From Naegleria gruberi (taxonomy: Eukaryota), in assembly GCA_000004985.1 (NCBI GenBank), contig GG738894.1: a DNA stretch of 64,000 nucleotides; one strand, given 5' to 3'. A program made the position numbers and the translations under genes. Below are positions 9,001-55,639 of this stretch, piece by piece; the stretch's first letter is position 1, and every line of letters begins with the position of its first letter. The notes beneath the pieces are model-generated. The model did no database searches. It worked only from the letters and a program-made list of their open reading frames with translations, and was not told where the DNA came from.

Positions 9001-12000
9001 NNNNNNNNNNNNNNNNNNNNNNNNNNNNNNNNNNNNNNNNNNNNNNNNNNNNNNNNNNNNNNNNNNNNNNNNNNNNNNNNNNNNNNNNNNNNNNNNNNNN
9101 NNNNNNNNNNNNNNNNNNNNNNNNNNNNNNNNNNNNNNNNNNNNNNNNNNNNNNNNNNNNNNNNNNNNNNNNNNNNNNNNNNNNNNNNNNNNNNNNNNNN
9201 NNNNNNNNNNNNNNNNNNNNNNNNNNNNNNNNNNNNNNNNNNNNNNNNNNNNNNNNNNNNNNNNNNNNNNNNNNNNNNNNNNNNNNNNNNNNNNNNNNNN
9301 NNNNNNNNNNNNNNNNNNNNNNNNNNNNNNNNNNNNNNNNNNNNNNNNNNNNNNNNNNNNNNNNNNNNNNNNNNNNNNNNNNNNNNNNNNNNNNNNNNNN
9401 NNNNNNNNNNNNNNNNNNNNNNNNNNNNNNNNNNNNNNNNNNNNNNNNNNNNNNNNNNNNNNNNNNNNNNNNNNNNNNNNNNNNNNNNNNNNNNNNNNNN
9501 NNNNNNNNNNNNNNNNNNNNNNNNNNNNNNNNNNNNNNNNNNNNNNNNNNNNNNNNNNNNNNNNNNNNNNNNNNNNNNNNNNNNNNNNNNNNNNNNNNNN
9601 NNNNNNNNNNNNNNNNNNNNNNNNNNNNNNNNNNNNNNNNNNNNNNNNNNNNNNNNNNNNNNNNNNNNNNNNNNNNNNNNNNNNNNNNNNNNNNNNNNNN
9701 NNNNNNNNNNNNNNNNNNNNNNNNNNNNNNNNNNNNNNNNNNNNNNNNNNNNNNNNNNNNNNNNNNNNNNNNNNNNNNNNNNNNNNNNNNNNNNNNNNNN
9801 NNNNNNNNNNNNNNNNNNNNNNNNNNNNNNNNNNNNNNNNNNNNNNNNNNNNNNNNNNNNNNNNNNNNNNNNNNNNNNNNNNNNNNNNNNNNNNNNNNNN
9901 NNNNNNNNNNNNNNNNNNNNNNNNNNNNNNNNNNNNNNNNNNNNNNNNNNNNNNNNNNNNNNNNNNNNNNNNNNNNNNNNNNNNNNNNNNNNNNNNNNNN
10001 NNNNNNNNNNNNNNNNNNNNNNNNNNNNNNNNNNNNNNNNNNNNNNNNNNNNNNNNNNNNNNNNNNNNNNNNNNNNNNNNNNNNNNNNNNNNNNNNNNNN
10101 NNNNNNNNNNNNNNNNNNNNNNNNNNNNNNNNNNNNNNNNNNNNNNNNNNNNNNNNNNNNNNNNNNNNNNNNNNNNNNNNNNNNNNNNNNNNNNNNNNNN
10201 NNNNNNNNNNNNNNNNNNNNNNNNNNNNNNNNNNNNNNNNNNNNNNNNNNNNNNNNNNNNNNNNNNNNNNNNNNNNNNNNNNNNNNNNNNNNNNNNNNNN
10301 NNNNNNNNNNNNNNNNNNNNNNNNNNNNNNNNNNNNNNNNNNNNNNNNNNNNNNNNNNNNNNNNNNNNNNNNNNNNNNNNNNNNNNNNNNNNNNNNNNNN
10401 NNNNNNNNNNNNNNNNNNNNNNNNNNNNNNNNNNNNNNNNNNNNNNNNNNNNNNNNNNNNNNNNNNNNNNNNNNNNNNNNNNNNNNNNNNNNNNNNNNNN
10501 NNNNNNNNNNNNNNNNNNNNNNNNNNNNNNNNNNNNNNNNNNNNNNNNNNNNNNNNNNNNNNNNNNNNNNNNNNNNNNNNNNNNNNNNNNNNNNNNNNNN
10601 NNNNNNNNNNNNNNNNNNNNNNNNNNNNNNNNNNNNNNNNNNNNNNNNNNNNNNNNNNNNNNNNNNNNNNNNNNNNNNNNNNNNNNNNNNNNNNNNNNNN
10701 NNNNNNNNNNNNNNNNNNNNNNNNNNNNNNNNNNNNNNNNNNNNNNNNNNNNNNNNNNNNNNNNNNNNNNNNNNNNNNNNNNNNNNNNNNNNNNNNNNNN
10801 NNNNNNNNNNNNNNNNNNNNNNNNNNNNNNNNNNNNNNNNNNNNNNNNNNNNNNNNNNNNNNNNNNNNNNNNNNNNNNNNNNNNNNNNNNNNNNNNNNNN
10901 NNNNNNNNNNNNNNNNNNNNNNNNNNNNNNNNNNNNNNNNNNNNNNNNNNNNNNNNNNNNNNNNNNNNNNNNNNNNNNNNNNNNNNNNNNNNNNNNNNNN
11001 NNNNNNNNNNNNNNNNNNNNNNNNNNNNNNNNNNNNNNNNNNNNNNNNNNNNNNNNNNNNNNNNNNNNNNNNNNNNNNNNNNNNNNNNNNNNNNNNNNNN
11101 NNNNNNNNNNNNNNNNNNNNNNNNNNNNNNNNNNNNNNNNNNNNNNNNNNNNNNNNNNNNNNNNNNNNNNNNNNNNNNNNNNNNNNNNNNNNNNNNNNNN
11201 NNNNNNNNNNNNNNNNNNNNNNNNNNNNNNNNNNNNNNNNNNNNNNNNNNNNNNNNNNNNNNNNNNNNNNNNNNNNNNNNNNNNNNNNNNNNNNNNNNNN
11301 NNNNNNNNNNNNNNNNNNNNNNNNNNNNNNNNNNNNNNNNNNNNNNNNNNNNNNNNNNNNNNNNNNNNNNNNNNNNNNNNNNNNNNNNNNNNNNNNNNNN
11401 NNNNNNNNNNNNNNNNNNNNNNNNNNNNNNNNNNNNNNNNNNNNNNNNNNNNNNNNNNNNNNNNNNNNNNNNNNNNNNNNNNNNNNNNNNNNNNNNNNNN
11501 NNNNNNNNNNNNNNNNNNNNNNNNNNNNNNNNNNNNNNNNNNNNNNNNNNNNNNNNNNNNNNNNNNNNNNNNNNNNNNNNNNNNNNNNNNNNNNNNNNNN
11601 NNNNNNNNNNNNNNNNNNNNNNNNNNNNNNNNNNNNNNNNNNNNNNNNNNNNNNNNNNNNNNNNNNNNNNNNNNNNNNNNNNNNNNNNNNNNNNNNNNNN
11701 NNNNNNNNNNNNNNNNNNNNNNNNNNNNNNNNNNNNNNNNNNNNNNNNNNNNNNNNNNNNNNNNNNNNNNNNNNNNNNNNNNNNNNNNNNNNNNNNNNNN
11801 NNNNNNNNNNNNNNNNNNNNNNNNNNNNNNNNNNNNNNNNNNNNNNNNNNNNNNNNNNNNNNNNNNNNNNNNNNNNNNNNNNNNNNNNNNNNNNNNNNNN
11901 NNNNNNNNNNNNNNNNNNNNNNNNNNNNNNNNNNNNNNNNNNNNNNNNNNNNNNNNNNNNNNNNNNNNNNNNNNNNNNNNNNNNNNNNNNNNNNNNNNNN

Positions 12001-15000
12001 NNNNNNNNNNNNNNNNNNNNNNNNNNNNNNNNNNNNNNNNNNNNNNNNNNNNNNNNNNNNNNNNNNNNNNNNNNNNNNNNNNNNNNNNNNNNNNNNNNNN
12101 NNNNNNNNNNNNNNNNNNNNNNNNNNNNNNNNNNNNNNNNNNNNNNNNNNNNNNNNNNNNNNNNNNNNNNNNNNNNNNNNNNNNNNNNNNNNNNNNNNNN
12201 NNNNNNNNNNNNNNNNNNNNNNNNNNNNNNNNNNNNNNNNNNNNNNNNNNNNNNNNNNNNNNNNNNNNNNNNNNNNNNNNNNNNNNNNNNNNNNNNNNNN
12301 NNNNNNNNNNNNNNNNNNNNNNNNNNNNNNNNNNNNNNNNNNNNNNNNNNNNNNNNNNNNNNNNNNNNNNNNNNNNNNNNNNNNNNNNNNNNNNNNNNNN
12401 NNNNNNNNNNNNNNNNNNNNNNNNNNNNNNNNNNNNNNNNNNNNNNNNNNNNNNNNNNNNNNNNNNNNNNNNNNNNNNNNNNNNNNNNNNNNNNNNNNNN
12501 NNNNNNNNNNNNNNNNNNNNNNNNNNNNNNNNNNNNNNNNNNNNNNNNNNNNNNNNNNNNNNNNNNNNNNNNNNNNNNNNNNNNNNNNNNNNNNNNNNNN
12601 NNNNNNNNNNNNNNNNNNNNNNNNNNNNNNNNNNNNNNNNNNNNNNNNNNNNNNNNNNNNNNNNNNNNNNNNNNNNNNNNNNNNNNNNNNNNNNNNNNNN
12701 NNNNNNNNNNNNNNNNNNNNNNNNNNNNNNNNNNNNNNNNNNNNNNNNNNNNNNNNNNNNNNNNNNNNNNNNNNNNNNNNNNNNNNNNNNNNNNNNNNNN
12801 NNNNNNNNNNNNNNNNNNNNNNNNNNNNNNNNNNNNNNNNNNNNNNNNNNNNNNNNNNNNNNNNNNNNNNNNNNNNNNNNNNNNNNNNNNNNNNNNNNNN
12901 NNNNNNNNNNNNNNNNNNNNNNNNNNNNNNNNNNNNNNNNNNNNNNNNNNNNNNNNNNNNNNNNNNNNNNNNNNNNNNNNNNNNNNNNNNNNNNNNNNNN
13001 NNNNNNNNNNNNNNNNNNNNNNNNNNNNNNNNNNNNNNNNNNNNNNNNNNNNNNNNNNNNNNNNNNNNNNNNNNNNNNNNNNNNNNNNNNNNNNNNNNNN
13101 NNNNNNNNNNNNNNNNNNNNNNNNNNNNNNNNNNNNNNNNNNNNNNNNNNNNNNNNNNNNNNNNNNNNNNNNNNNNNNNNNNNNNNNNNNNNNNNNNNNN
13201 NNNNNNNNNNNNNNNNNNNNNNNNNNNNNNNNNNNNNNNNNNNNNNNNNNNNNNNNNNNNNNNNNNNNNNNNNNNNNNNNNNNNNNNNNNNNNNNNNNNN
13301 NNNNNNNNNNNNNNNNNNNNNNNNNNNNNNNNNNNNNNNNNNNNNNNNNNNNNNNNNNNNNNNNNNNNNNNNNNNNNNNNNNNNNNNNNNNNNNNNNNNN
13401 NNNNNNNNNNNNNNNNNNNNNNNNNNNNNNNNNNNNNNNNNNNNNNNNNNNNNNNNNNNNNNNNNNNNNNNNNNNNNNNNNNNNNNNNNNNNNNNNNNNN
13501 NNNNNNNNNNNNNNNNNNNNNNNNNNNNNNNNNNNNNNNNNNNNNNNNNNNNNNNNNNNNNNNNNNNNNNNNNNNNNNNNNNNNNNNNNNNNNNNNNNNN
13601 NNNNNNNNNNNNNNNNNNNNNNNNNNNNNNNNNNNNNNNNNNNNNNNNNNNNNNNNNNNNNNNNNNNNNNNNNNNNNNNNNNNNNNNNNNNNNNNNNNNN
13701 NNNNNNNNNNNNNNNNNNNNNNNNNNNNNNNNNNNNNNNNNNNNNNNNNNNNNNNNNNNNNNNNNNNNNNNNNNNNNNNNNNNNNNNNNNNNNNNNNNNN
13801 NNNNNNNNNNNNNNNNNNNNNNNNNNNNNNNNNNNNNNNNNNNNNNNNNNNNNNNNNNNNNNNNNNNNNNNNNNNNNNNNNNNNNNNNNNNNNNNNNNNN
13901 NNNNNNNNNNNNNNNNNNNNNNNNNNNNNNNNNNNNNNNNNNNNNNNNNNNNNNNNNNNNNNNNNNNNNNNNNNNNNNNNNNNNNNNNNNNNNNNNNNNN
14001 NNNNNNNNNNNNNNNNNNNNNNNNNNNNNNNNNNNNNNNNNNNNNNNNNNNNNNNNNNNNNNNNNNNNNNNNNNNNNNNNNNNNNNNNNNNNNNNNNNNN
14101 NNNNNNNNNNNNNNNNNNNNNNNNNNNNNNNNNNNNNNNNNNNNNNNNNNNNNNNNNNNNNNNNNNNNNNNNNNNNNNNNNNNNNNNNNNNNNNNNNNNN
14201 NNNNNNNNNNNNNNNNNNNNNNNNNNNNNNNNNNNNNNNNNNNNNNNNNNNNNNNNNNNNNNNNNNNNNNNNNNNNNNNNNNNNNNNNNNNNNNNNNNNN
14301 NNNNNNNNNNNNNNNNNNNNNNNNNNNNNNNNNNNNNNNNNNNNNNNNNNNNNNNNNNNNNNNNNNNNNNNNNNNNNNNNNNNNNNNNNNNNNNNNNNNN
14401 NNNNNNNNNNNNNNNNNNNNNNNNNNNNNNNNNNNNNNNNNNNNNNNNNNNNNNNNNNNNNNNNNNNNNNNNNNNNNNNNNNNNNNNNNNNNNNNNNNNN
14501 NNNNNNNNNNNNNNNNNNNNNNNNNNNNNNNNNNNNNNNNNNNNNNNNNNNNNNNNNNNNNNNNNNNNNNNNNNNNNNNNNNNNNNNNNNNNNNNNNNNN
14601 NNNNNNNNNNNNNNNNNNNNNNNNNNNNNNNNNNNNNNNNNNNNNNNNNNNNNNNNNNNNNNNNNNNNNNNNNNNNNNNNNNNNNNNNNNNNNNNNNNNN
14701 NNNNNNNNNNNNNNNNNNNNNNNNNNNNNNNNNNNNNNNNNNNNNNNNNNNNNNNNNNNNNNNNNNNNNNNNNNNNNNNNNNNNNNNNNNNNNNNNNNNN
14801 NNNNNNNNNNNNNNNNNNNNNNNNNNNNNNNNNNNNNNNNNNNNNNNNNNNNNNNNNNNNNNNNNNNNNNNNNNNNNNNNNNNNNNNNNNNNNNNNNNNN
14901 NNNNNNNNNNNNNNNNNNNNNNNNNNNNNNNNNNNNNNNNNNNNNNNNNNNNNNNNNNNNNNNNNNNNNNNNNNNNNNNNNNNNNNNNNNNNNNNNNNNN

Positions 15001-16943
15001 NNNNNNNNNNNNNNNNNNNNNNNNNNNNNNNNNNNNNNNNNNNNNNNNNNNNNNNNNNNNNNNNNNNNNNNNNNNNNNNNNNNNNNNNNNNNNNNNNNNN
15101 NNNNNNNNNNNNNNNNNNNNNNNNNNNNNNNNNNNNNNNNNNNNNNNNNNNNNNNNNNNNNNNNNNNNNNNNNNNNNNNNNNNNNNNNNNNNNNNNNNNN
15201 NNNNNNNNNNNNNNNNNNNNNNNNNNNNNNNNNNNNNNNNNNNNNNNNNNNNNNNNNNNNNNNNNNNNNNNNNNNNNNNNNNNNNNNNNNNNNNNNNNNN
15301 NNNNNNNNNNNNNNNNNNNNNNNNNNNNNNNNNNNNNNNNNNNNNNNNNNNNNNNNNNNNNNNNNNNNNNNNNNNNNNNNNNNNNNNNNNNNNNNNNNNN
15401 NNNNNNNNNNNNNNNNNNNNNNNNNNNNNNNNNNNNNNNNNNNNNNNNNNNNNNNNNNNNNNNNNNNNNNNNNNNNNNNNNNNNNNNNNNNNNNNNNNNN
15501 NNNNNNNNNNNNNNNNNNNNNNNNNNNNNNNNNNNNNNNNNNNNNNNNNNNNNNNNNNNNNNNNNNNNNNNNNNNNNNNNNNNNNNNNNNNNNNNNNNNN
15601 NNNNNNNNNNNNNNNNNNNNNNNNNNNNNNNNNNNNNNNNNNNNNNNNNNNNNNNNNNNNNNNNNNNNNNNNNNNNNNNNNNNNNNNNNNNNNNNNNNNN
15701 NNNNNNNNNNNNNNNNNNNNNNNNNNNNNNNNNNNNNNNNNNNNNNNNNNNNNNNNNNNNNNNNNNNNNNNNNNNNNNNNNNNNNNNNNNNNNNNNNNNN
15801 NNNNNNNNNNNNNNNNNNNNNNNNNNNNNNNNNNNNNNNNNNNNNNNNNNNNNNNNNNNNNNNNNNNNNNNNNNNNNNNNNNNNNNNNNNNNNNNNNNNN
15901 NNNNNNNNNNNNNNNNNNNNNNNNNNNNNNNNNNNNNNNNNNNNNNNNNNNNNNNNNNNNNNNNNNNNNNNNNNNNNNNNNNNNNNNNNNNNNNNNNNNN
16001 NNNNNNNNNNNNNNNNNNNNNNNNNNNNNNNNNNNNNNNNNNNNNNNNNNNNNNNNNNNNNNNNNNNNNNNNNNNNNNNNNNNNNNNNNNNNNNNNNNNN
16101 NNNNNNNNNNNNNNNNNNNNNNNNNNNNNNNNNNNNNNNNNNNNNNNNNNNNNNNNNNNNNNNNNNNNNNNNNNNNNNNNNNNNNNNNNNNNNNNNNNNN
16201 NNNNNNNNNNNNNNNNNNNNNNNNNNNNNNNNNNNNNNNNNNNNNNNNNNNNNNNNNNNNNNNNNNNNNNNNNNNNNNNNNNNNNNNNNNNNNNNNNNNN
16301 NNNNNNNNNNNNNNNNNNNNNNNNNNNNNNNNNNNNNNNNNNNNNNNNNNNNNNNNNNNNNNNNNNNNNNNNNNNNNNNNNNNNNNNNNNNNNNNNNNNN
16401 NNNNNNNNNNNNNNNNNNNNNNNNNNNNNNNNNNNNNNNNNNNNNNNNNNNNNNNNNNNNNNNNNNNNNNNNNNNNNNNNNNNNNNNNNNNNNNNNNNNN
16501 NNNNNNNNNNNNNNNNNNNNNNNNNNNNNNNNNNNNNNNNNNNNNNNNNNNNNNNNNNNNNNNNNNNNNNNNNNNNNNNNNNNNNNNNNNNNNNNNNNNN
16601 NNNNNNNNNNNNNNNNNNNNNNNNNNNNNNNNNNNNNNNNNNNNNNNNNNNNNNNNNNNNNNNNNNNNNNNNNNNNNNNNNNNNNNNNNNNNNNNNNNNN
16701 NNNNNNNNNNNNNNNNNNNNNNNNNNNNNNNNNNNNNNNNNNNNNNNNNNNNNNNNNNNNNNNNNNNNNNNNNNNNNNNNNNNNNNNNNNNNNNNNNNNN
16801 NNNNNNNNNNNNNNNNNNNNNNNNNNNNNNNNNNNNNNNNNNNNNNNNNNNNNNNNNNNNNNNNNNNNNNNNNNNNNNNNNNNNNNNNNNNNNNNNNNNN
16901 NNNNNNNNNNNNNNNNNNNNNNNNNNNNNNNNNNNNNNNNNNN
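1..16943. other. assembly gap (run of N)
   Basis: 16,943 consecutive n characters; no sequence information. Confidence 0.99.
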
Positions 16944-27266: not shown

Positions 27267-28967
27267 TTATTGTTGAAAATGAAGGGAAATATCAGTTAGG
27301 GAAAATAAGGTGTGTGAGGTAAATTTTGAAAGACCTGGTTGATCAGGAATAGTTTCATCTAGGAAGTGAACAAGATTGTTTCTAATTATTTGTGGCAGGT
27401 GTTTTCTTCTCATATCAGCACTGGTTAATTCAAAAAGTGGAATAAGGAACTTTGATTTTTCATTTTCAACTGTCATTAAAGGACCTCTCACATTACATTT
27501 ACCTTCCATCAAATGTTTAACAAACGCACCAGAAGATACAATCTTTGAATTCTTATGGTCTTTAAGGATTTGTTCTCCTGATTTCCAACTTTGAATATAA
27601 ACTTTAGTTTCGTTTGATTTGATAAGAATCTCATTTTTCACTAAGTTAATATACATTTGATTAATATTAGATCTGTAGTTTTGATGTACTGTTACAATAC
27701 TATCCTTATTATTTTCAATATATATGGATGCAAATTTGGATTTGGTTTCGAATAGAGATTTCTCTTCTCCATTTCGAGCAATGAACAATTTGAAAGGACT
27801 AGCTCCAAAACTATAGAGCATTATAAGACATTTCGAATGTTCATATTGGCCTTCATTGAAGCGAAGTAATTTTTCTGCTCCTTCGTTATTTTCAAAATAA
27901 GTTCTCATTTCGAAGGTTCTATTACTATCACCAGCCATAGCTCCATGAATTCTGATCATGTCAAAGTTAGTTTCGCGGTTAGTATTGGATTCATTTGATG
28001 CACAAATTATGTGATCAGTATTATGCTTTGAGATAGTCAAGGTTTGGTGTTCAATCTTGGAAGCTACATATATCTCATCATCCTTGTCTATTGTGTAGTA
28101 AACAACGAGATACTTGATAACTCCTGCCCAAGTATCTCCAAATGTGTTATTGGTTGCCTCTACTCTCAAGAACGTTCTTTCAGTATTCAGAAATTCTTTA
28201 ACTTTTTCAGTAACATCCTCAGGGCCATATGTAGCAGCCAAAATATTAATACCATCCTGTGGAACATATTTACAAACTTCCTTATTGACAGCCTCATGTC
28301 TCCGTTTTCTAACGATTGAACTTAATGGACTATTTGCTTCAAATACAATGGATGAATTCAATTCCTCAATGATATCAACCCTTAAGAGAGCATGTTCCTC
28401 ACAAACTTTAACTCTTGGTTCACTCCATTGACCACTCTGCAACTTGACTCTGTAGACCAAGGTAAAACTCTTGAAAACATTTGGCCATGGATCTCCAAAC
28501 ACTGAATTTGAGGCATGAACAGTTAGCTCATTTCCAGTCTGCTTATCAAAAATATCAGCAACTTTTTGAGTACATTCCAATAGCCCATAAACAGCCAACA
28601 CCACTTGTATTCCATGTTTTTTGCAAGTATGTGCGTTTAAACTCTTTGTAATCTTTCTTGTTGCAAAAGCTGAAAACTCCCCACTAAATATTTCATACCA
28701 TAATTCATTCCTTTCATCCTCGACAACCAATACCAAGGCCCTTTGTATGGTATTCAAATCATCAAAACATTCTACATTTTTAATATTCATCACCATATTA
28801 AATTCAGCCTTATTTTCCTGAAGGAATCGGAAGTATTGGGTAACATTGGTCTTACCATAGGAAGCTCCGATCACTGATTTACAGTCTTGCAATGAAGGAG
28901 ATGATGCGGCAGCAGCACTACCCTTACGAAATCGTTTCATTTTTTTTGTTCTTATTTGCAAGTTCAT
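27267..28967 (-). CDS. hypothetical 566-aa protein with an internal tandem duplication of a ~55-aa module
   Basis: Uninterrupted ORF with a true ATG at 28967. Two similar modules: IQVVLAVYGLLECTQKVADIF..NELTVHASNSVFGDPWPNVFKSFTLVYRV and INILAATYGPEDVTEKVKEFL..TFLRVEATNNTFGDTWAGVIKYLVVYYTI. P-loop-like GASYGKT near the N-terminus, not a canonical Walker A. Family not recognised. Confidence 0.55.
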   Translation of the reverse strand: MNLQIRTKKMKRFRKGSAAAASSPSLQDCKSVIGASYGKTNVTQYFRFLQENKAEFNMVMNIKNVECFDDLNTIQRALVLVVEDERNELWYEIFSGEFSAFATRKITKSLNAHTCKKHGIQVVLAVYGLLECTQKVADIFDKQTGNELTVHASNSVFGDPWPNVFKSFTLVYRVKLQSGQWSEPRVKVCEEHALLRVDIIEELNSSIVFEANSPLSSIVRKRRHEAVNKEVCKYVPQDGINILAATYGPEDVTEKVKEFLNTERTFLRVEATNNTFGDTWAGVIKYLVVYYTIDKDDEIYVASKIEHQTLTISKHNTDHIICASNESNTNRETNFDMIRIHGAMAGDSNRTFEMRTYFENNEGAEKLLRFNEGQYEHSKCLIMLYSFGASPFKLFIARNGEEKSLFETKSKFASIYIENNKDSIVTVHQNYRSNINQMYINLVKNEILIKSNETKVYIQSWKSGEQILKDHKNSKIVSSGAFVKHLMEGKCNVRGPLMTVENEKSKFLIPLFELTSADMRRKHLPQIIRNNLVHFLDETIPDQPGLSKFTSHTLFSLTDISLHFQQ

Positions 28968-29051: not shown

Positions 29052-32000
29052 CTATTTGAAATAAGTGAGAGAAAGTAATTGTGCAGCAGATGGTCTTTGC
29101 TTTGCATCCTTCTCTAACATTTTCAAAACTATCTGAATTAATTCTTCAGAATATTCATTGTGAGCTGTTTCCTTCATTTGATTTGTCAAAATTTTAATGG
29201 CATTCTCTGCTTGATTTCCCATAAGCAAGTTACTGATCGAAGTTGCTTGGTCGTTGGTCATGATTTGATAGATTGAAATTCCCAAAGAGAAGATATCTGT
29301 GTTAAATGAATATGAACTTCCAAGTGCAACTTCTGGACTCATATCTTATGAAGGGTTTAGTTTAAATTAGAAATGAATAAACTTACAAAGTGGAGTGCCA
29401 GCGTAGGAATGACCTGACATTTCTTGATACTTTTTGGCTAATCCAAAATCTGCCAATACAATTTCTATATTATCACTCGACAGTTTCTTAATAAAAATAT
29501 TAGTTGGCTTAATATCTCTGTGAATAATGTGCATTTCTTCGTGAACATATTTCAATGCGCTCAACATTTGTTTCAAAATTTGCTTTACAATCTTTTCCCT
29601 GCAATTATCTGTGTTCAATTTAGATAAATCGCCCAATTCATAAAAATCCATGTCAATAATCAACAAGTTATCATTGGTAATGAAATAGTCATTAATTTTG
29701 ATAATATTTGGATGTTTGATATTGCTTAATTGGGATGCTTCTTTCATTATTGTGTTCAGGTCTGTCAATGATTCAAATTTAACAGTCTTGATTGCTTTCG
29801 GTTTGTTTGTTTTCAAATCGGTCACTTTGTAAACGCTTCCAAAAGCTCCTTGACCAATTCTTGAAATATTGGCATATCTGGAAAATGGATTTGCCGTATC
29901 AGAACCAACGGAAGAACCAGCAGATGAGGATATAATCATTGAACTAATAGAAAGGAAGGTGGTTTCGGAAAGTTCTACATTTCTAGTATCCAATTTAGCT
30001 AGTTCAAAATCCTTCTTCCTTTTCTTGGAGAAACACATGAATAGTACAATGATCAATATCAAAACTGTAAGCAAAATCAATATAAATGCAACAACTGGTA
30101 TGACAATAGCAACTATTAACACTGTAGAATCTTGAGTTTTCTGAATTTCACAAAACTGTCCTTCAAATCCACTCTTACATTGACAAACATTAAAATCGGA
30201 ACATTGCCCATTTCCATTACAAACATTTTCACTTATTGCCAATGTTCCATTACAGCTCAATTTGGCATCACATGTATTATTCCAAGAATTATAAAGGTAG
30301 TTTTCACCACAATATGGAATAACTTTTCGAATATATACAGAATCAATGAGAAAGATTTCTCCCGTGCCTTCATCATAGTCTACTTGTTTTGAGAACAATG
30401 TAAACATTGAATATGTTCCAAATCCATCCCCATTGAATTTTGAGGCTACAGATCTTGACCCAGCAATATCCAATAGTAATCCACTTTGATTCTGATACAT
30501 TCGAACAATACAAGCACCAATGCCGTCCAAAATAATTACATCTCCATTCTTTTTCACATAGAGAGCAGATGGATTGTCGATGGATGATTGGAGTGCTGGT
30601 AATTTGTCTCCTGAATATCCTGCAATAAAATTGCCAACTATAGTTCTCAAATAAAAAGTACCATCAGATAACTTTTCAATTCTTCTAATGGTAGATGACG
30701 TACAAATATACAAATAACCATCTTGGTAGAGAATATTTGCTATTAGTCCAGGAATTGTTGCATTATTAATTATTCCATCAGAAGAAATTACGGTACCAAC
30801 AATAGAAAAAGCAAACTCTAATGAAATGAATTGAGTTTTCAGATTATATCTAAAAATGGAAGAAGCTGTGGAAAAAAGTAAATCACCAGTTGTCTCATCA
30901 TAAGTCATTCCTGTCATTGCTGTATTAGCAGCTGGGCAAGGAGAATCAGTTCCTTTAACACCAACCACAAACATGCCACATGCATTTCCAATAAGTTTTT
31001 CAAAACTCACGGTTTTCGGGTCGATTCTAATAATTCTACAAGCGTCCTTAATGTAGATTTTTCCATCAAACTTTGAAAAGAGACCATATGGCCTTGACAC
31101 AGATGGCTGAAGATTCAATGTTAAATAGGGTGTATCGAATGGAGTGGTTATGCTAGTAAACAGTGATGTACTGAGAGAGGTTGACTTTCCGGTTGTTTCA
31201 TCAAATTTCTTTAAAGTCCTATTATCAACAAAGTAGATCACCTTCTTAGATGAATCTCTCATTAAAAGACCTGGGACTAATGTTCTAGAAATTGGGCTAA
31301 GTCCAGCTATTGTTGTAATTTTCCCATTCGAAAGTTCACTAATATGATAAACATTAGTCACGATAATGCTAGAGCTTTGTCTAGTAGCTCTGGGAGAAAA
31401 TCTAGATATTATTGGAATTGGTTTCATATGAAAATATAATTGTACTTACAGGGCAGAATTTTCTATTGGAATATTCTCACCATTGTATCCAACAATAAAA
31501 TAAGCTGAATTTGAAACATTATAGTAGTCCAAGCCTGAAATTTTCTTCAGTGAATGGGTTTCTAATTGGTAATCATAGAGTTGACCAGCATTCCAAAAAA
31601 ATAGAGAATTGTTACCATTCATTGAAAACCCAGTAAAAGAAAAAGATGATGGTATAGGCATAGTAACAACTGTTGTTGATCCATTCTTAAAATCAAGATA
31701 TTCGTAAAGAGTGTTCAATACAGTTGAATAAGTAAATACTGAATTACAATTAGGGTATCTTAAATTTGGAAAAACAACAATTTGATCAACAATACTCGTT
31801 GGAATTGGTAATAAATAATACACAATTGTTGATTTTTGAACAGCTGTTATATAATTACTATATCTGACATAAATTGTAGAATTGTTAAAAGAATCTCCAA
31901 TTGCAGCCAACGAAGGATAAATTTGTGAAGAGGAAAATGCTAATGTCAAAATTTGAGTTTCCAAATTGAAATTGTAAATAGAATATTCACTTAAAAGTAA

Positions 32001-33369
32001 TACATCACCATTTCCAATATAAAATACAGTAGTAATAGGAAGGTAAATACGTTGTGGAATGCCTGCACTGTACTTGATGGGATAGTCTCTATGACAGCCC
32101 AATACCGTTTTCATCTTTCCATTCGAAACCTTTCTAAGGAACCACAATTTTTCAACAAAGTACAACTCATTCTTATGGTAGAATGGAAAATTAATATCAC
32201 CTCCTGAATACATTTGGAGAGGCGAAATGTCTTCACCGTTTGGATGATTAACTATTCCACCTGATAATGTGGAAACCATTTTGGTTTGTAAATCAATCTT
32301 TCGAATGCATCTATTCGATTTATCTGCCACTATTAATGTATTTTGAGTGACAATCAAAGAGGAAGGTTCATAAAAACTGATATTAGGAGAATTATATAAT
32401 TGATTATCTCCACCATATCCCTCTGAACCTCCAACAAAAATTTGAGTTTCGGCTGAATTCACTAATTTCATTTGTACAAAATTATTACTTTGAGATGAAG
32501 CGTAAATTTCACCTCCATTAGAAACATAGACGCCATATCTTAGAATTGGTTATCAATTGAATCATTCAATTATTCACTTACAAATTAGATTGAGCCACTC
32601 CTCCATCCACAATTCTATACTTTCCATTTTCATCAATTGACTTGAGTCTTTCTGCATCTGTGAAATAGACAATATCCTTATTTCCATTAGAAACAACGAA
32701 TATATTCTTTGGAGATTGTAATTTCAAAAGCTTGGCATCTACACCATCATAATCACCATTTAAATAACCACCTCCTCCAATAACGGAAATTTGTGATGTT
32801 GAAATTTCGTATTTTTTGATTAAATTATTATCTGTATCCGAAATGTATACAAAGCCATTCACAGAAACATAAACACCTCTTGGATTATTAAACATGTGTG
32901 CAATAGATGTTGTTCTGGTTCTATTAGAAACTATTCTAATCCTATTATTGAGTGAATCAGCAATATACAAATCGCCATTCACTGGATTCACAGATATAGC
33001 TGTTGGTGTATTCAATAATGTACCCACAGCCTTCAATCCATCTCCATTGTATCCATTCGTTACATAACCAGCATAAACCTCCACCAATGACATGGTGTTA
33101 AAAATCCTAAAAACTACATGTCTCTCTGCATCCGAAACAAAAACATCTCCATTCAAGCCAAGACACAATCCAGTGGGAGACAACATGTAGGCATTCTTTG
33201 CCTCCACTACTTTATCCAAAGTATTGTAGAAACCATCAAGTGTTTGTATATAATAATTGACAGGTGTAGATAAAGAAGATATCACTGAAAGATTCGTCAA
33301 GAATCCAACAAGAAGAAGAAGAAATAAACAAGTGTGTGTCAAAGGACTGGACACAAAACAACCACTCAT
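29052..33369 (-). CDS. receptor-like protein kinase: signal peptide, NHL-repeat ectodomain, EGF-like Cys-rich module, TM helix, Ser/Thr/Tyr kinase domain; four exons 33369..32582, 32538..31450, 31401..29387, 29344..29052
   Basis: Four track ORFs (32578-33369, 31446-32471, 29367-31427, 29052-29342) each end at a GTAAGT donor and resume after an AG acceptor in frame. Introns are 43, 48 and 42 nt. Exon lengths sum to 4185 nt = 1395 codons with consistent phases. N-terminal hydrophobic signal (CLFLLLLVGFL). Many NHL-like blades (NGDLYIADSLNNRIRIV, GFVYISDTDNNLIKKY, YGVYVSNGGEIYASS..). EGF-like CDAKLSCNGTL..CNGNGQCSDFNVCQCKSGFEGQFCE. TM VLIVAIVIPVVAFILILLTVLILIIVLF. Kinase motifs GQGAFGSVYKV, AIKTVK, HRDIKPTNIF, DFGLAK. 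The GTPLY|MSPEV (APE) motif is completed only by splicing across the last intron. Confidence 0.65.
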
Positions 33370-33746: not shown

Positions 33747-34730
33747 ATGGCAAGAAAGCAAAACAAGAAGAAGCACAACTCTTCTTTCATAGATAAGGGT
33801 TGTAACAACCCAATAAATCCACCCCAGGAATTTAACATCTATTCAATTTGTCCAGAATACATGGAAAAACTAAATCAAAGAATTTGCAATAATCTTCTCG
33901 ATAAGTTTTTGGTAGAGTTTGAACAGGAGAGCCTTAAAGATAGTAAGGAAGAAAAATTCAGAAAGTGGAACGAGATGATTGCAAAGTTGAACAAGGTTGT
34001 TGTTCCTAAGAAAACGAAACTATCGAAAAAGAAAACAAGAGTTTCAGTTCTTCCGACTGTTGATTCGCCTTTGAAAACAACACTTATGGAAATAAGGAAA
34101 GAGTGGATTCAAAAACTGCGAATCAAAGAAAGTAAAAAGAAAGAAACCACAAGAACATCAGGAAGAGTTATTATTCTCCTTGATAGAAGCATTTCTGATC
34201 AAAGAATTACGAAAATCTATTCCGATATCTCCAGAGAGATTGTTGCCAATAATAATTACAAGTACTTTCTGCTTAATGTGTTAGAACACGGCTACCGTGG
34301 CTACCACGATTGGTCAAAGGTTCCAAGAGAATATTTAGCTGATGAATACTTTATTAGAAAGTTAATTTCATTTGGCTCAAGCTTCTATGACATTTTACAA
34401 TACATTTCATATTCAATTTGGAATAATCAAAGACTTATCATTTCATTCTTAAAGAAAACAAGGGGAGATTGCTTTAGTAGTTTTCCAAATGATATGAAAA
34501 ACCACCAAACATTTGCAGAGGTTGCTGTTAACATGGATCCAAAAAATATGAGATATACTAACCTTAATTCAAAACCAGTTTTTGTCAGGATGATGGCTAA
34601 GGAAAATGTGAAATGCTTGCCTTACATTGATCATCAATTGTTATTTGATCAGAAGTTTATGGTTTCTCTCATGTTAGAATTGAATATTAAGAATACGGAT
34701 TTATTTGGAAAGAAATATCGTTACAATTAA
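33747..34730 (+). CDS. hypothetical basic protein (327 aa); C-terminal part shows DUF4116-like repeat character
   Basis: True ATG at 33747. Lys-rich N-terminal half. C-terminal FPNDMKNHQTFAEVAVNMDPKNMRYTNL..VKCLPYIDHQLLFDQKFMVSLM resembles the repeats of the DUF4116 gene at 52944-54098. Weak call. Confidence 0.45.
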   Translation: MARKQNKKKHNSSFIDKGCNNPINPPQEFNIYSICPEYMEKLNQRICNNLLDKFLVEFEQESLKDSKEEKFRKWNEMIAKLNKVVVPKKTKLSKKKTRVSVLPTVDSPLKTTLMEIRKEWIQKLRIKESKKKETTRTSGRVIILLDRSISDQRITKIYSDISREIVANNNYKYFLLNVLEHGYRGYHDWSKVPREYLADEYFIRKLISFGSSFYDILQYISYSIWNNQRLIISFLKKTRGDCFSSFPNDMKNHQTFAEVAVNMDPKNMRYTNLNSKPVFVRMMAKENVKCLPYIDHQLLFDQKFMVSLMLELNIKNTDLFGKKYRYN

Positions 34731-46136: not shown

Positions 46137-47120
46137 ATGAAAACTTTCCAATCTACAACTATTGCAATCATTGCAGCAACATGCATGCTCATTGCCATGA
46201 TGCTCTCATGCACCAATGCTCAACGTTTGTCTACTCAATTCGGTCACTTGATGAGCTCACAAGCTCTGATCAAGCAAATTAATTTGGATCCACAATCAAC
46301 ATTTAAAGCTCAATTGTATCCAAGATTTGAGTGGGGTCATGTGTTGGTGAAATTAAAATGAAGGTCAATGTGGTGCTGTTTGGGCAATGGTAAGTTTTTT
46401 AATTCCGATCTAAATGATCAATAATTATTATTTTGCAATTTCGAATATTAATTTTTATTGGAAACCATTTAGGTTCCAAGTGCTACAGTTTCTGATAGAA
46501 TGTGCGTTCAATCGAGTGCTAAATTCCAAGAAAGATTATCCACCCAATATATTTTGGAATGTGATACTAGAGATTTTGGATGTAATGGTGGTTATTTGAA
46601 TACTGAATTCGAATTTGAATTAAAGAGAGGTATTCCAACTGAAAAATGTGTTCCATACTCTGCTGTTAATGGTACTTTGGCTAATTGTCCATCCAAATGT
46701 GTCAATGGTGAACCATTAGTTTTATACAAGACTAAGGCAGTTCAAAACCTTACTGGAGAGCATGATATGCAACAAGCCATCTTACAAGGAGGAAGTATTA
46801 TGACAGAACTTGACATGTATCAAGATTTCCTCTATTATTCCAGTGGTGTCTATCAACATTCTGCAAATTTGAGACAACCAATTGCTAAGTTTGTTGTCAG
46901 AATTATTGGATGGGGAGTTGAAAATGGTGTTAAATATTGGATTGTTCCAAATATTTGGGGTAAAACATGGGGAATGCAAGGTTATATCTGGATTCGTGTA
47001 AGTATTGAAGGAAATTATTTTTAAATTTAATTTATAATATTTATTACAATTATTGTAAAATAGAGAGGTAATAATGAAAGTAATATTGAAAAGGATGCAT
47101 TCGCTTTCCAAGTTTACTAA
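46137..47120 (+). pseudogene. cathepsin B-like (papain-family C1) paralogue, copy A, with disrupted pro-region exon
   Basis: Signal peptide MKTFQSTTIAIIAATCMLIAMMLSC. Relative to copy B it lacks ~140 nt of the propeptide/mature junction and shifts frame, giving an in-frame TGA at ~46358 before the conserved NEGQCGAVWAM. Exon 2 (46473..46997) and exon 3 (47064..47120) are intact and introns (83 and 66 nt) are conserved with copy B. Catalytic Cys and His are substituted as in copy B. Confidence 0.45.
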
Positions 47121-47241: not shown

Positions 47242-47291
47242 NNNNNNNNNNNNNNNNNNNNNNNNNNNNNNNNNNNNNNNNNNNNNNNNNN
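47242..47291. other. scaffold gap (50 N)
   Basis: Run of 50 n immediately 3' of the phospholipase-B-like gene stop codon. Confidence 0.99.
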
Positions 47292-54527: not shown

Positions 54528-55639
54528 ATGGAAAGGAGAGTTGGAATATTGATGATATTCATCATCGGAATGGTTATTTGTATAATGATGAATGTTTCGG
54601 TGAATGGTCAACGTTTGTCGAGTGATTTTGGACATTTGGTAAACTCTCGGACACTGGTTAGACGAATTAATGAAAATCCAAAATCACCATTCAAGGCAAA
54701 ACTGTATGAAAGATTTGATTCTATTGCCAAGTTGATTAATTTATCGAGGAGAAATGGTGGCAGAAAATTTTCTATGAAAACTGTTCAATCAAGAAAGTTT
54801 AAACTTTCGAAAGGATTGGCAATTCCACCTGAATATGATTTGAGAAAGAATTGGTATCAATGTGTTGGTGATATTCAAAATGAAGGTCAATGTGGTGCTG
54901 TTTGGGCAATGGTAAGTTTTTTCCAATTATTTCAATTCTAATGTGAAATATTTCAATAATAATCTGCTCTATTTTCTAATTTAAACCATTAGGCTCCAAG
55001 TGCTACTGTTTCTGATAGAATGTGCATTCAATCTAATGCTAAATTCCAAGAAAGATTGTCCTCTCAATATATTTTGGAATGTGATACTAGAGATTTTGGA
55101 TGTAATGGTGGATATATGAATACTGAATTTGAATTTGAATTGAATAGGGGTGTTCCAACTGAGAAATGTGTGCCTTACATTGCCTTCAATATGACATTAC
55201 AACCTTGCCCAACTAGCTGTTTCAATTCTACTCAACCAATGGTTTTATACAAGACAAAATCAGTGCAAAATGTGACTGGAGAGTTGGACATGCAGCAAGC
55301 CATTTTGCAAGGAGGAAGTATCATGACTGAAATGGACGTTTATCAAGATTTTATATATTATTCCAGTGGAGTGTATGAACATGATCCATCTTTCACTCAA
55401 CCAATAGCGAAAACAGTTGCAAGAATTGTTGGTTGGGGAAGTTTGAATGGAGTTAATTATTGGATTGTAGCCAATGTTTGGGGGAAAACTTGGGGTTTGG
55501 ATGGCTACGTTTTGGTTCGTGTAAGTTATTTAGTGGCTTAATATTTCAATATAATCACTTGAATATTTATGTATTACTATAGAGAGGTACTAATGAGAGT
55601 AACATAGAAAAGGACGCATATGCTTTCCAAGTTTACTAA
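54528..55639 (+). CDS. cathepsin B-like papain-family homologue lacking the catalytic Cys and His (predicted secreted pseudoprotease), three exons 54528..54911, 54993..55520, 55583..55639
   Basis: Signal peptide MERRVGILMIFIIGMVICIM. Propeptide/mature junction PPEYDLRKNW. Active-site region reads QCGAVWAM where papain-like proteases have QCGSCWAF (catalytic Cys replaced by Val). Exon 1 ends there at GTAAGT. Exon 2 starts APSATVSDRMC (cathepsin B: GAVEAISDRIC). The His region reads KTVARIVGWG (cathepsin B: GHAIRILGWG). Asn retained (ANVWG). Exon 3 RGTNESNIEKDAYAFQVY. Confidence 0.65.

What the first reader, a model, noticed from the sequence alone, without database searches (positions are those of the whole stretch)
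29052..33369. Four separate six-frame ORFs are one receptor-kinase gene (NHL propeller ectodomain - EGF - TM - kinase) joined by 42-48-nt introns
Each upstream ORF ends exactly at a GTAAGT. Each downstream ORF is entered in frame after an AG 42-48 nt later, with consistent phases. The kinase APE motif (GTPLY|MSPEV) and an NHL blade (..SNL|YGVYVSNGGEIY..) are completed only by these splices. The resulting ~1395-aa type-I membrane protein combines a large NHL beta-propeller ectodomain with an intracellular active kinase (VAIK, HRD and DFG motifs all present). Annotating the pieces separately would produce a soluble NHL protein, a second NHL protein and an N-terminally odd kinase.
Basis: seen in the sequence. 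Interest (0 to 1): 0.6.

Follow-up and report, generated by a model that had tools for sequence, protein, structure and literature searches.

The report
Annotated Naegleria NHL-propeller receptor kinase gene
The four open reading frames are one four-exon gene of the amoeba Naegleria gruberi for a membrane receptor with a beta-propeller outside and an active kinase inside, but this exact gene model is already in public databases, so the finding is correct rather than new.

Summary
On the minus strand, exons 33369-32582, 32538-31450, 31401-29387 and 29344-29052 are separated by three GTAAGT...AG introns of 43, 48 and 42 nt. They join into a 4185-nt reading frame with no internal stop. The 1394-aa product is identical, residue for residue, to XP_002672977.1 / EFC40233.1 / UniProt D2VSQ4 (NAEGRDRAFT_81100, "predicted protein", Naegleria gruberi).

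The splices are supported by homology across each junction. They are also supported by a paralog that is 81% identical in DNA. It keeps introns 2 and 3 at the same positions, but with different lengths (one differs by 5 nt) and lower identity than the exons.

The protein reads signal peptide, NHL beta-propeller ectodomain (about 17-18 blades, probably three propellers), one EGF module, one transmembrane helix, then a complete Ser/Thr kinase. It belongs to a family of at least 14 loci in N. gruberi, also present in N. lovaniensis and N. fowleri, all uncharacterised. Its kinase clade is Naegleria-specific.

The closest analogues are M. tuberculosis PknD (opposite topology) and teneurins (no kinase). 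Several paralog models, unlike this one, are truncated near the same intron. No transcript data could be reached. The receptor function is inferred.

The parts
32582..33369 (-). Exon 1 (ATG at 33369). Encodes aa 1-262 plus 2 nt of codon 263: the signal peptide (aa 1 to about 32, 33369-33274) and NHL blades 1-4.
   Evidence: A in-frame TAA lies 4 codons upstream of the ATG (read from the sequence; the script count stepped over it). There is an A at position -3.
32539..32581 (-). Intron 1: 43 nt, GTAAGT...CTAAG, phase 2.
   Evidence: It is kept with the same length and GT..AG in the 96.5%-identical copy L001. 490 non-Naegleria HSPs span the junction.
31450..32538 (-). Exon 2. Encodes aa 263-625: NHL blades 5-6 and the divergent middle beta region. 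It has no start codon of its own until 32471.
31402..31449 (-). Intron 2: 48 nt, GTAAGT...TCTAG, phase 2. It contains an ATG at 31427 that is in frame with exon 3.
   Evidence: In paralog L002 it sits at the same position but is 42 nt long and 64% identical, against 82% in exons. The splice restores the motif GYNGENIPIENSAL|FSPR, which matches the NHL pre-blade consensus G-Y-x-G-D..A..A-x-L-x-x-P.
29387..31401 (-). Exon 3. Encodes aa 626-1297: the third propeller region (aa 613 to about 1000), EGF (aa 1009-1043, 30254-30150), TM helix (aa 1053-1083, 30122-30030), SKKRKK, juxtamembrane segment, and the kinase from the G-loop through HRD (29522-29499) and DFG (29450-29442) to GTPL.
29345..29386 (-). 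Intron 3: 42 nt, GTAAGT...ATAAG, phase 1, lying inside the kinase activation segment just before the APE (SPE) motif.
   Evidence: In paralog L002 it is at the same position and 47 nt long, a 5-nt difference that is not a multiple of 3. Paralog model P0005 reads into the equivalent intron ('GTPLCKFLHNWSI').
29052..29344 (-). Exon 4. Encodes aa 1298-1394 (kinase subdomains VIII-XI: YMSPE, DIFSLG, KQRPS) and the stop codon at 29054-29052.

Best explanation
Window 33369-29052 (minus strand) is the four-exon gene NAEGRDRAFT_81100 of Naegleria gruberi.

Gene structure. Three short U2-type GT-AG introns (43, 48 and 42 nt) are removed to give an mRNA for a 1394-aa type-I membrane protein. Its order is: cleavable signal peptide, a six-bladed NHL beta-propeller, about two further propeller-like domains, one EGF module, one transmembrane helix with a basic stop-transfer, and a catalytically complete RD-type Ser/Thr kinase in the cytoplasm.

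Proposed mechanism. This part is inferred from the architecture and from how single-pass receptor kinases generally work. It was not tested. The propeller/EGF ectodomain would bind an extracellular or cell-surface ligand. Candidates are a prey-derived, glycan or self-surface molecule. Binding would change receptor pairing or clustering, the kinase domains would phosphorylate each other's activation segment (DFG...SYAGTPLYMSPE), and the active kinase would then signal inside the cell.

What is shown: the gene structure, the domain content, the topology signals, the intact catalytic motifs, purifying selection, and membership of a Naegleria-wide paralog family.

What is inferred: splicing in vivo, surface localisation, ligand binding, and activation by dimerisation.
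For: - The joined frame is open, and its product is identical to XP_002672977.1 / D2VSQ4.
- Pfam gives Pkinase at full length, NHL (63 bits against a cut-off of 20), TEN_NHL and EGF_2.
- Hydropathy shows only an N-terminal leader and one helix at aa 1053-1083 followed by SKKRKK. There are 13 N-glycosylation sequons outside and 1 inside.
- The junctions are bridged by homologs: 490, 20 and 2 non-Naegleria HSPs respectively, plus the paralogs.
- Comparison with L001 (96.5% identical): both introns are retained, all four exon indels are 3 nt, and synonymous/non-synonymous codon changes are 30/36 in frame against 15/55 and 13/55 out of frame.
- Comparison with L002 (81% identical): introns 2 and 3 are at the same sites, their lengths are 42 and 47 nt, and intron identity is 64-67% against 82% in exons. 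dN/dS is 0.35 overall, 0.12 in the kinase and 0.40 in the ectodomain.
- GTAAGT marks exon ends throughout the window.
- The AF2 model is all-beta with about 17-18 four-stranded blades.
- Foldseek matches multi-propeller ectodomains: LRP2/6, the BT4663 sensor, teneurin and ROS1.
- The family is present in N. gruberi, N. lovaniensis and N. fowleri.
Against: - No transcript, EST or protein evidence could be reached. A spliced-junction pattern found nothing in metagenome contigs, and the locus is not mentioned in the searchable literature.
- Alternative in-frame acceptors exist with the same donors: 94-nt, 60-nt and 57-nt introns. Minor isoforms cannot be excluded.
- The middle of the ectodomain (about aa 466-571) is modelled at pLDDT around 30. 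It has no Pfam or blade-HMM hit, so 'three propellers' is provisional.
- The signal peptide and TM helix rest on hydropathy only.
- The ligand and downstream pathway are unknown.
Confidence: 0.88

Rival explanations
1. The four ORFs are separate genes, or ORFs translated separately, with no splicing: a secreted NHL protein, a second NHL protein, an NHL-EGF-TM-kinase fragment and a small C-terminal peptide.
For: Each piece is listed as an ORF with a start codon. An ATG inside intron 2 (31427) happens to be in frame with exon 3. Prokaryote-style gene callers do output these pieces from metagenome contigs (P0002, P0004, P0125).
Against: - Homology to paralogs and to bacterial NHL proteins starts 22 codons before the first ATG of ORF 2 and runs across all junctions.
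- The kinase would lack subdomains VIII-XI, and the 96-aa piece would be a kinase C-lobe fragment.
- The gaps between ORFs are only 42-48 nt, each bounded by GTAAGT...AG.
- The same arrangement is conserved in a paralog of 81% identity, with intron lengths that would shift the frame.
Confidence: 0.02
2. The locus is a decaying pseudogene. On this view the in-frame stops are disabling mutations rather than introns.
For: Three in-frame stops interrupt an otherwise continuous homology. No expression data were available.
Against: - Every interruption is a clean GTAAGT...AG unit of 42-48 nt whose removal restores the frame exactly.
- The same units occur in L001 and L002.
- dN/dS against the paralog is 0.35 overall and 0.12 in the kinase.
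- All catalytic motifs are intact.
- Exon indels against L001 are all multiples of 3.
Confidence: 0.02
3. It is one gene, but the main mRNA uses different acceptors from the reader's. Examples are a 60-nt intron 2 (removing FSPR), a 57-nt intron 3 (removing YMSPE) or a 94-nt intron 1.
For: These alternatives keep the frame open with the same GTAAGT donors. No transcript data exist to decide directly.
Against: - The 57-nt option deletes the conserved APE/SPE motif, and the 94-nt option deletes an NHL blade. Both elements are present in all complete paralogs.
- The 48-nt acceptor gives L-F-S-P, matching the L-x-x-P consensus and the paralog's L-Y-F-P.
- The alternative CCCAG acceptor of intron 2 is not conserved in L002.
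Confidence: 0.05
4. The gene model is right, but the ectodomain is not a ligand sensor. It would be either a teneurin-like adhesion or phagocytic-recognition module, or an enzyme of the six-bladed lactonase / PAL / strictosidine-synthase type tethered to a kinase.
For: - There are weak Pfam hits to Arylesterase (E 0.025).
- Kinase-less NHL-EGF-TM proteins with short tails exist in N. lovaniensis and N. fowleri (P0009, P0010, P0026, P0030).
Against: - No enzyme family passes a Pfam threshold.
- Adhesion and sensing are not mutually exclusive for a receptor kinase.
- The ectodomain evolves faster (dN/dS 0.40) than the kinase (0.12), which is typical of recognition surfaces.
Confidence: 0.2

Closest known systems
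XP_002672977.1 / EFC40233.1 / UniProt D2VSQ4 (NAEGRDRAFT_81100, Naegleria gruberi), with its paralogs such as XP_002672884.1 (NAEGRDRAFT_71976, same scaffold)
   Same: Identical over all 1394 residues. The paralogs share the order signal peptide, NHL, EGF, TM, kinase, at 40-50% identity.
   Different: Nothing differs. This is the same gene model. It is named only 'predicted/uncharacterized protein', and no paper in the searchable library mentions it.
Mycobacterium tuberculosis PknD (sensor domain PDB 1RWI) and bacterial NHL-kinases such as P0022 and P0114
   Different: The topology is opposite: in bacteria the kinase is N-terminal and the propeller C-terminal. Bacteria have one propeller rather than about three, no EGF module, and a kinase domain only about 25-28% identical. 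It is a functional analogue, not the same family.
Teneurins and teneurin-like proteins (PDB 9G42, 8FIA, 6FAY, 9IFO)
   Different: Teneurins are type-II proteins with a YD-shell/toxin-like C-terminus and no kinase. None of these features is present here.
Type-I receptor kinases with beta-propeller ectodomains: plant CRINKLY4 (bioRxiv 10.1101/2020.08.10.245050; PMC4617170) and animal ROS1/Sevenless (PDB 9OZI, 9PVP)
   Same: Same overall logic: N-terminal propeller(s), a cysteine-rich or EGF-like module, one TM helix, a cytoplasmic kinase. The ROS1 ectodomain appears among the Foldseek hits.
   Different: The propellers are of other types (WD40-type in CRINKLY4, YWTD in ROS1). The kinase here shows no particular similarity to receptor-type kinases: it is HRDIKPTN (Ser/Thr type) and closest to NEK, CDPK, ULK and STE20 at 37% identity or less.

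Membership tests
Spliceosomal GT-AG (U2-type) introns | GT at the 5' end and AG at the 3' end, with removal restoring one open frame | tested here: met
   All three introns are GTAAGT...AG. The joined coding sequence of 4185 nt has no internal stop.
Spliceosomal GT-AG (U2-type) introns | Evolves as non-coding sequence: position conserved, length free to change by non-multiples of 3, lower identity than the exons | tested here: met
   In L002, intron 2 is 42 nt against 48 nt and intron 3 is 47 nt against 42 nt. Intron identity is 64-67% against 82% in exons. L001 was too close (2 of 91 differences) to be informative.
Spliceosomal GT-AG (U2-type) introns | Junctions observed in mature RNA | not testable with these tools
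   No transcript collection was available. The spliced-junction pattern gave 0 hits in metagenome contigs.
Eukaryotic protein kinase (ePK), catalytically competent Ser/Thr kinase | Full kinase domain containing the G-loop, beta-3 Lys, alpha-C Glu, HRDxKxxN, DFG, APE and subdomain XI Arg | tested here: met
   Pfam Pkinase profile 1-263, 195 bits against a cut-off of 31.7. Motifs found: GQGAFG, AIK, MKE, HRDIKPTN, DFG, SPE, QRP. APE/SPE is present only after splice 3.
Eukaryotic protein kinase (ePK), catalytically competent Ser/Thr kinase | Phosphotransfer activity | not testable with these tools
   This needs an in vitro kinase assay.
NHL-repeat six-bladed beta-propeller | NHL repeat profile above threshold and six blades forming a propeller | tested here: met
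NHL-repeat six-bladed beta-propeller | The remaining ectodomain (aa 345-1000) is also made of NHL propellers | tested here: inconclusive
   There are weak blade hits at 613-630, 727-745 and 882-918. Bacterial NHL proteins align over aa 560-1000. The model shows 4-stranded blades throughout, but pLDDT is about 30 for aa 466-571.
PknD-type bacterial NHL sensor kinases | N-terminal cytoplasmic kinase, one TM helix, C-terminal extracellular NHL propeller | tested here: not met
   The order here is propeller, TM, kinase. The bacterial relatives P0022 and P0114 have the kinase at the N-terminus. The resemblance is functional only.
Teneurins | Type-II topology, EGF repeats, NHL propeller, YD-shell and a toxin-like C-terminal domain | tested here: not met
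   Only the NHL and EGF modules match. There is no YD/Rhs or Tox-GHH hit, and the topology is type I with a kinase tail.
Receptor tyrosine kinases / plant RLK-Pelle (TKL) receptor kinases | Kinase domain belonging to the TK or TKL/IRAK-Pelle groups (for example HRDLAARN in TKs) | tested here: not met
   The catalytic loop is HRDIKPTN. Pkinase scores 195 bits against 113 for PK_Tyr_Ser-Thr. The best solved relatives are CDPK, NEK7/1/2, ULK3 and STK24/25. The nearest non-Naegleria sequences are 37% identical or less and are NEK/CDPK/ULK-like.
Type-I single-pass membrane protein | Cleavable N-terminal signal peptide, a single TM helix, positive-inside flank | tested here: met
   The hydropathy peaks that define the topology are aa 9-35 and 1048-1087 (a marginal one, 1.63 at aa 501-519, was disregarded), and SKKRKK follows the helix. 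Four paralogs (P0007, P0008, P0012, P0009) show the same layout, with both an N-terminal leader and one TM helix; P0010, P0026 and P0030 show the TM helix but no leader. SignalP and DeepTMHMM were not available, so this is a hydropathy-level test only.

The most novel reading that the evidence does not exclude
Naegleria carries an expanded receptor kinase family that nobody appears to have described. There are at least 14 loci in N. gruberi, and the family is also present in N. lovaniensis, N. fowleri and in unnamed metagenome sequences. Members are type-I receptor Ser/Thr kinases whose ectodomains are teneurin/bacterial-type NHL propellers plus EGF modules (an RCC1-propeller variant also exists). 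Their kinase domain forms a Naegleria-specific clade. On this reading, receptor kinases were invented independently in Heterolobosea, converging on bacterial PknD with the opposite topology. A conserved short intron near the APE motif has caused several public models of the family to be truncated.
Probability: 0.55. Interest if true: 0.45.

Novelty: already known. Interest (0 to 1): 0.22.

Why it matters
For the finding as given, it matters little. The reference annotation already has exactly this four-exon model, so nothing needs correcting at this locus.

The useful by-products are practical:
- The case shows that six-frame or prokaryote-style ORF calling on Naegleria DNA splits this family into misleading 'soluble NHL protein' and 'kinase' pieces. 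Those pieces are already present in public metagenome protein catalogues.
- Several paralog models in the N. gruberi reference (P0005, NAEGRDRAFT_70916, NAEGRDRAFT_70317, probably NAEGRDRAFT_34130) appear truncated at or near the same short intron. Kinome and receptor counts for Naegleria are therefore likely to be off.

Biologically, a genus-wide and fast-evolving family of NHL-propeller receptor kinases is a reasonable candidate for sensing of prey, surfaces or the environment. The genus includes the pathogen N. fowleri. All of this remains untested.

Tried and rejected
- Reference DNA of paralogs. The look-up of encoding contigs for P0005, P0006 and P0001 returned nothing. Intron positions in the reference paralogs could therefore be judged only from protein tails and from two metagenome contigs (L001, L002).
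- Transcript evidence. A degenerate 32-nt pattern spanning spliced junction 3 gave 0 hits in metagenome contigs.
- Literature. There are no relevant papers for Naegleria + NHL + kinase and none naming the locus. The 2010 N. gruberi genome paper is not held. The Acrasis and Naegleria pangenome papers do not mention such receptors.
- The afdb50 fold library was not available.
- An error of mine. My first GTAAGT 'enrichment' figure (expected about 3.4) and the window GC of 24.4% were wrong, because 17,043 of the 64,000 bases are N. Corrected, GC is 33.3% and GTAAGT is not enriched in number. I replaced that argument with a positional test.
- An early impression overturned. After it looked as if NHL-kinases were restricted to N. 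gruberi. The exhaustive search showed otherwise.
- L001 was too similar (2 differences in 91 intron bases) to separate introns from exons by divergence. L002 did this job.
- I considered an enzymatic ectodomain (lactonase or PAL) and rejected it as the main reading, because no such family passes its threshold.
Full report
**1. The observation**

The minus strand of window 29052-33369 carries four ORFs of 263, 341, 686 and 96 aa.
- The introns are 32581-32539 (43 nt), 31449-31402 (48 nt) and 29386-29345 (42 nt). Each begins GTAAGT and ends AG. The phases are 2, 2 and 1.
- The exons are 33369-32582, 32538-31450, 31401-29387 and 29344-29052. They give a 4185-nt frame with no internal stop and a 1394-aa product.
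- Minor corrections: the third ORF runs 6 codons into its intron (..GTPLCKFIHF*), the lysine motif is KAIK, and the length is 1394 aa.
- Many other GT..AG pairs also keep an open frame (39-44 per junction). The open frame alone is therefore weak evidence, and the case rests on the consensus donor, the short length and homology.

**2. Is it more than chance?**

I first have to correct myself. The window contains 17,043 N (positions 1-16943 and two 50-N gaps). Real GC is therefore 33.3%, not 24.4%, and GTAAGT is not numerically enriched (23 sites against about 32 expected).

What is non-random is where the sites lie.
- 12 of the 23 GTAAGT sites terminate an open frame of at least 100 codons that stops within 25 codons.
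- Only 3.65% of random positions do so (P = 5e-12).
- Composition-matched hexamers with the same TAA register do so at 1/31 and 0/33.

GTAAGT followed by a 40-60-nt AT-rich stretch and AG is thus the general exon-end signal in this window. The three sites of this gene fit that pattern.

**3. Identity**

The spliced product is found, residue for residue, in the public collection as EFC40233.1 / XP_002672977.1 / UniProt D2VSQ4, 'predicted protein [Naegleria gruberi]', NAEGRDRAFT_81100, on a 499,907-bp scaffold.
- The GC of 33% agrees with the published N. gruberi figure: 33% GC, 1.7 exons per gene, mean intron 203 bp (PMC8296547).
- With three introns, the gene has more introns than that genome-wide mean (1.7 exons per gene).

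**4. Independent support for the splices**

- Homology. 490 BLASTP HSPs from non-Naegleria, mostly bacterial and hence intronless, NHL proteins span junction 1. Twenty span junction 2. The kinase Pfam model and two bacterial kinases span junction 3.
- Junction 1 falls at the first strand of NHL blade 5 (YGVYVSNGGEIYASS).
- Junction 2 restores GYNGENIPIENSAL|FSPR, matching the pre-blade consensus G-Y-x-G-D...A-x-L-x-x-P seen in the family alignment.
- Junction 3 restores GTPLYMSPE.
- Contig L001, from a soil/water-type metagenome assembly (ERZ929261), is 96.5% identical over window 33267-30688. It keeps introns 1 and 2, has only 3-nt indels in exons, and shows 30 synonymous to 36 non-synonymous changed codons in frame, against 15:55 and 13:55 out of frame.
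- Contig L002 from the same sample is an 81%-identical paralog, the counterpart of NAEGRDRAFT_34130. Introns 2 and 3 sit at exactly the same codon positions with GTAAGT donors.
- In L002 those introns are 42 and 47 nt instead of 48 and 42, and only 64-67% identical, against 82% in exons. The 5-nt length difference in intron 3 would destroy the frame if the segment were coding.
- After removing them, L002 also gives an open frame. dN/dS against our gene is 0.35 overall, 0.12 in the kinase and 0.40 in the ectodomain. This argues for two functional genes rather than pseudogenes.
- No transcript data could be reached. Splicing in vivo remains inferred.

**5. The protein**

- Pfam gives Pkinase 1135-1393 (profile 1-263, E 2e-57), NHL and TEN_NHL in aa 105-190, and EGF_2 at 1017-1043.
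- Hydropathy shows an N-terminal leader (aa 9-35) and one very hydrophobic helix (aa 1053-1083) followed by SKKRKK. There are 13 N-glycosylation sequons before the helix and one after. Six cysteines lie in an EGF spacing at 1009-1043.
- The catalytic motifs GQGAFG, AIK, HRDIKPTN, DFG, SPE and QRP are all present. This is an RD-type Ser/Thr kinase, not a pseudokinase.
- A blade HMM I built from bacterial NHL units finds six blades between aa 56 and 344, with weaker ones at 613-630, 727-745 and 882-918.
- An AlphaFold2 model of aa 30-1051 was built from an 18-sequence alignment. Mean pLDDT is 66 and pTM is 0.47. It is all-beta with about 17-18 four-stranded blades followed by the EGF module.
- The stretch aa 466-571 is unreliable in that model.
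- Foldseek returns multi-propeller ectodomains: LRP2/LRP6, the Bacteroides BT4663 sensor, teneurins and ROS1.
- I therefore read the ectodomain as one secure NHL propeller plus probably two more divergent ones.

**6. The family**

- An exhaustive HMMER search with the exon-3 product finds 87 proteins at E <= 1e-30. The top ones align continuously from the last propeller through EGF and TM into the kinase.
- All named ones are Naegleria. In N. gruberi the loci include NAEGRDRAFT_71976 (same scaffold), 70916, 70624, 72652, 70317, 58454, 68566 and 49308, plus P0005-P0008 and P0012.
- Six N. lovaniensis loci and N. fowleri FDP41_013523 also belong to it.
- Pfam confirms NHL(+EGF)+kinase in those tested.
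- Complete members share the layout signal peptide, ectodomain, TM, kinase.
- Unnamed metagenome proteins have the same architecture (P0178, P0167, P0212), and one has an RCC1 propeller instead (P0146).
- The kinase domain drops from at least 50% identity within Naegleria to 37% or less elsewhere, where the hits are NEK-, CDPK-, ULK- and STE20-like. It is therefore a lineage-specific clade and not a TK or TKL/RLK-Pelle kinase.
- Kinase-less NHL-EGF-TM proteins also exist in N. lovaniensis and N. fowleri.

**7. How it probably works**

The architecture is that of a single-pass receptor kinase.
- The propeller/EGF ectodomain evolves fastest (dN/dS 0.40), so it is the likely recognition surface.
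- The kinase is conserved (0.12) and is an RD kinase with a phosphorylatable activation segment.
- The most likely mechanism is ligand- or contact-induced change in receptor pairing, followed by trans-autophosphorylation and intracellular signalling.
- This is inference from domain logic and from analogues (PknD, CRINKLY4, ROS1), not from any test. An adhesion or phagocytic-recognition role of the teneurin-like ectodomain is a live variant. An enzymatic ectodomain is unlikely.

**8. Comparison with known systems**

- It works like bacterial PknD, which couples an NHL propeller sensor to a Ser/Thr kinase. It fails PknD membership because the topology is reversed.
- It shares NHL and EGF modules with teneurins but lacks their defining YD-shell and type-II topology.
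- It resembles propeller-bearing type-I receptor kinases of plants and animals in layout, but not in propeller type or kinase group.
- As a gene and a protein sequence it is already in RefSeq and UniProt. I found no paper describing it or the family, though the 2010 genome paper could not be read.

**9. Verdict**

Observation confirmed and interpretation supported. Novelty is 'already known', because the gene model is identical to the public one. Interest is low (0.22).

The residual value has two parts:
- The family appears to be undescribed.
- Several paralog models (P0005, NAEGRDRAFT_70916, NAEGRDRAFT_70317, and probably the 277-aa NAEGRDRAFT_34130) look truncated at or near the conserved intron by the APE motif.

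Noticed in passing
Paralog proteins P0005, P0130 (NAEGRDRAFT_70916) and P0138 (NAEGRDRAFT_70317); equivalent of window intron 29386-29345: Three public N. gruberi paralog models end 12-25 residues after 'GTP..' in the kinase activation segment. Their tails are GTPLCKFLHNWSI, GTPIFMVSFF... and GTPLFMVCYL... Their Pkinase matches stop at profile position 164 of 263. The tails back-translate to GTAAGT/GTATGT-like donors, so a conserved short intron near the APE motif was probably missed and the kinases are annotated as truncated.
   Followed up: partly
P0003 (NAEGRDRAFT_34130, 277 aa) against L002 1-2719: The reference model is kinase-only and starts at 'MIISSS' in the juxtamembrane segment. The near-identical gene on metagenome contig L002 has propeller, EGF and TM continuous upstream in the same frame. 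Several other N. gruberi 'kinase-only' models of about 190-290 aa (P0128, P0282, P0283, P0286, P0287) may likewise be fragments of receptor genes.
   Followed up: partly
P0006 (1223 aa paralog): Its model jumps from the start of the EGF region straight to the juxtamembrane segment, so it has no TM helix, and it also lacks an N-terminal leader. This is probably a false intron and a wrong start in the public model.
   Followed up: no
They cluster there with the full-length protein.
   Followed up: yes
L001 1-1391 against window above 33267; exon 1 (33369-32582): The 96.5%-identical copy L001 diverges abruptly at the 5' end. It has a different signal-peptide region and unrelated upstream DNA. Exon 1 carries 49 changed codons against 9 and 8 in exons 2 and 3. 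This suggests a fast-evolving or recombined N-terminal propeller, or that L001 is a very recent paralog rather than an allele.
   Followed up: partly
window 31427 (inside intron 2): An ATG within intron 2 is in frame with exon 3. The six-frame ORF (686 aa, 'MKPIPIISRFSPR...') therefore looks like a self-contained gene that lacks a signal peptide. This is a trap for ORF-based annotation.
   Followed up: yes
window 1-16943, 47242-47291, 61121-61170: These stretches are runs of N (16,943 nt, then two of 50 nt). Only about 47 kb of the window is real sequence, and statistics over the whole window are distorted unless the Ns are removed.
   Followed up: yes
window 61966-62944: Self-alignment shows a tandem repeat with a 72-nt period (about 13 copies, 81-90% identity between copies). 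If it is coding, it would be a 24-aa repeat.
   Followed up: no
window 46339-47120 and 54860-55639 (+ strand): These are diverged duplicate segments (78% identity). Each has two GTAAGT donors about 608 nt apart (46390/46998 and 54912/55521). They are probably paralogous genes with conserved introns about 8.5 kb apart.
   Followed up: no
window minus strand 48190, 41997, 40780, 40326, 26054, 19749; plus strand 24871, 39241, 47855: Further GTAAGT sites close long open frames of 67-366 codons and are followed by short AT-rich stretches ending in AG. Neighbouring genes probably also carry 40-60-nt introns and would be split by ORF-based calling.
   Followed up: no
P0146 (1399 aa, ENA metagenome): This is a relative with the same EGF and C-terminal kinase order but an RCC1-type propeller in place of NHL. 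It suggests that ectodomains are swapped on a common kinase chassis.
   Followed up: no
window 27267-28967 (-) and 33747-34730 (+): These are the flanking genes. A 566-aa ORF starts only 84 nt downstream of the kinase gene's stop and has no Pfam hit. A divergent 327-aa ORF lies 377 nt upstream and has only a sub-threshold DUF4116 hit.
   Followed up: partly
L001 627-714 against window 43843-43757: An 88-nt segment upstream of the L001 gene copy matches an unrelated place in the window at 94% identity. It may be a small dispersed repeat.
   Followed up: no
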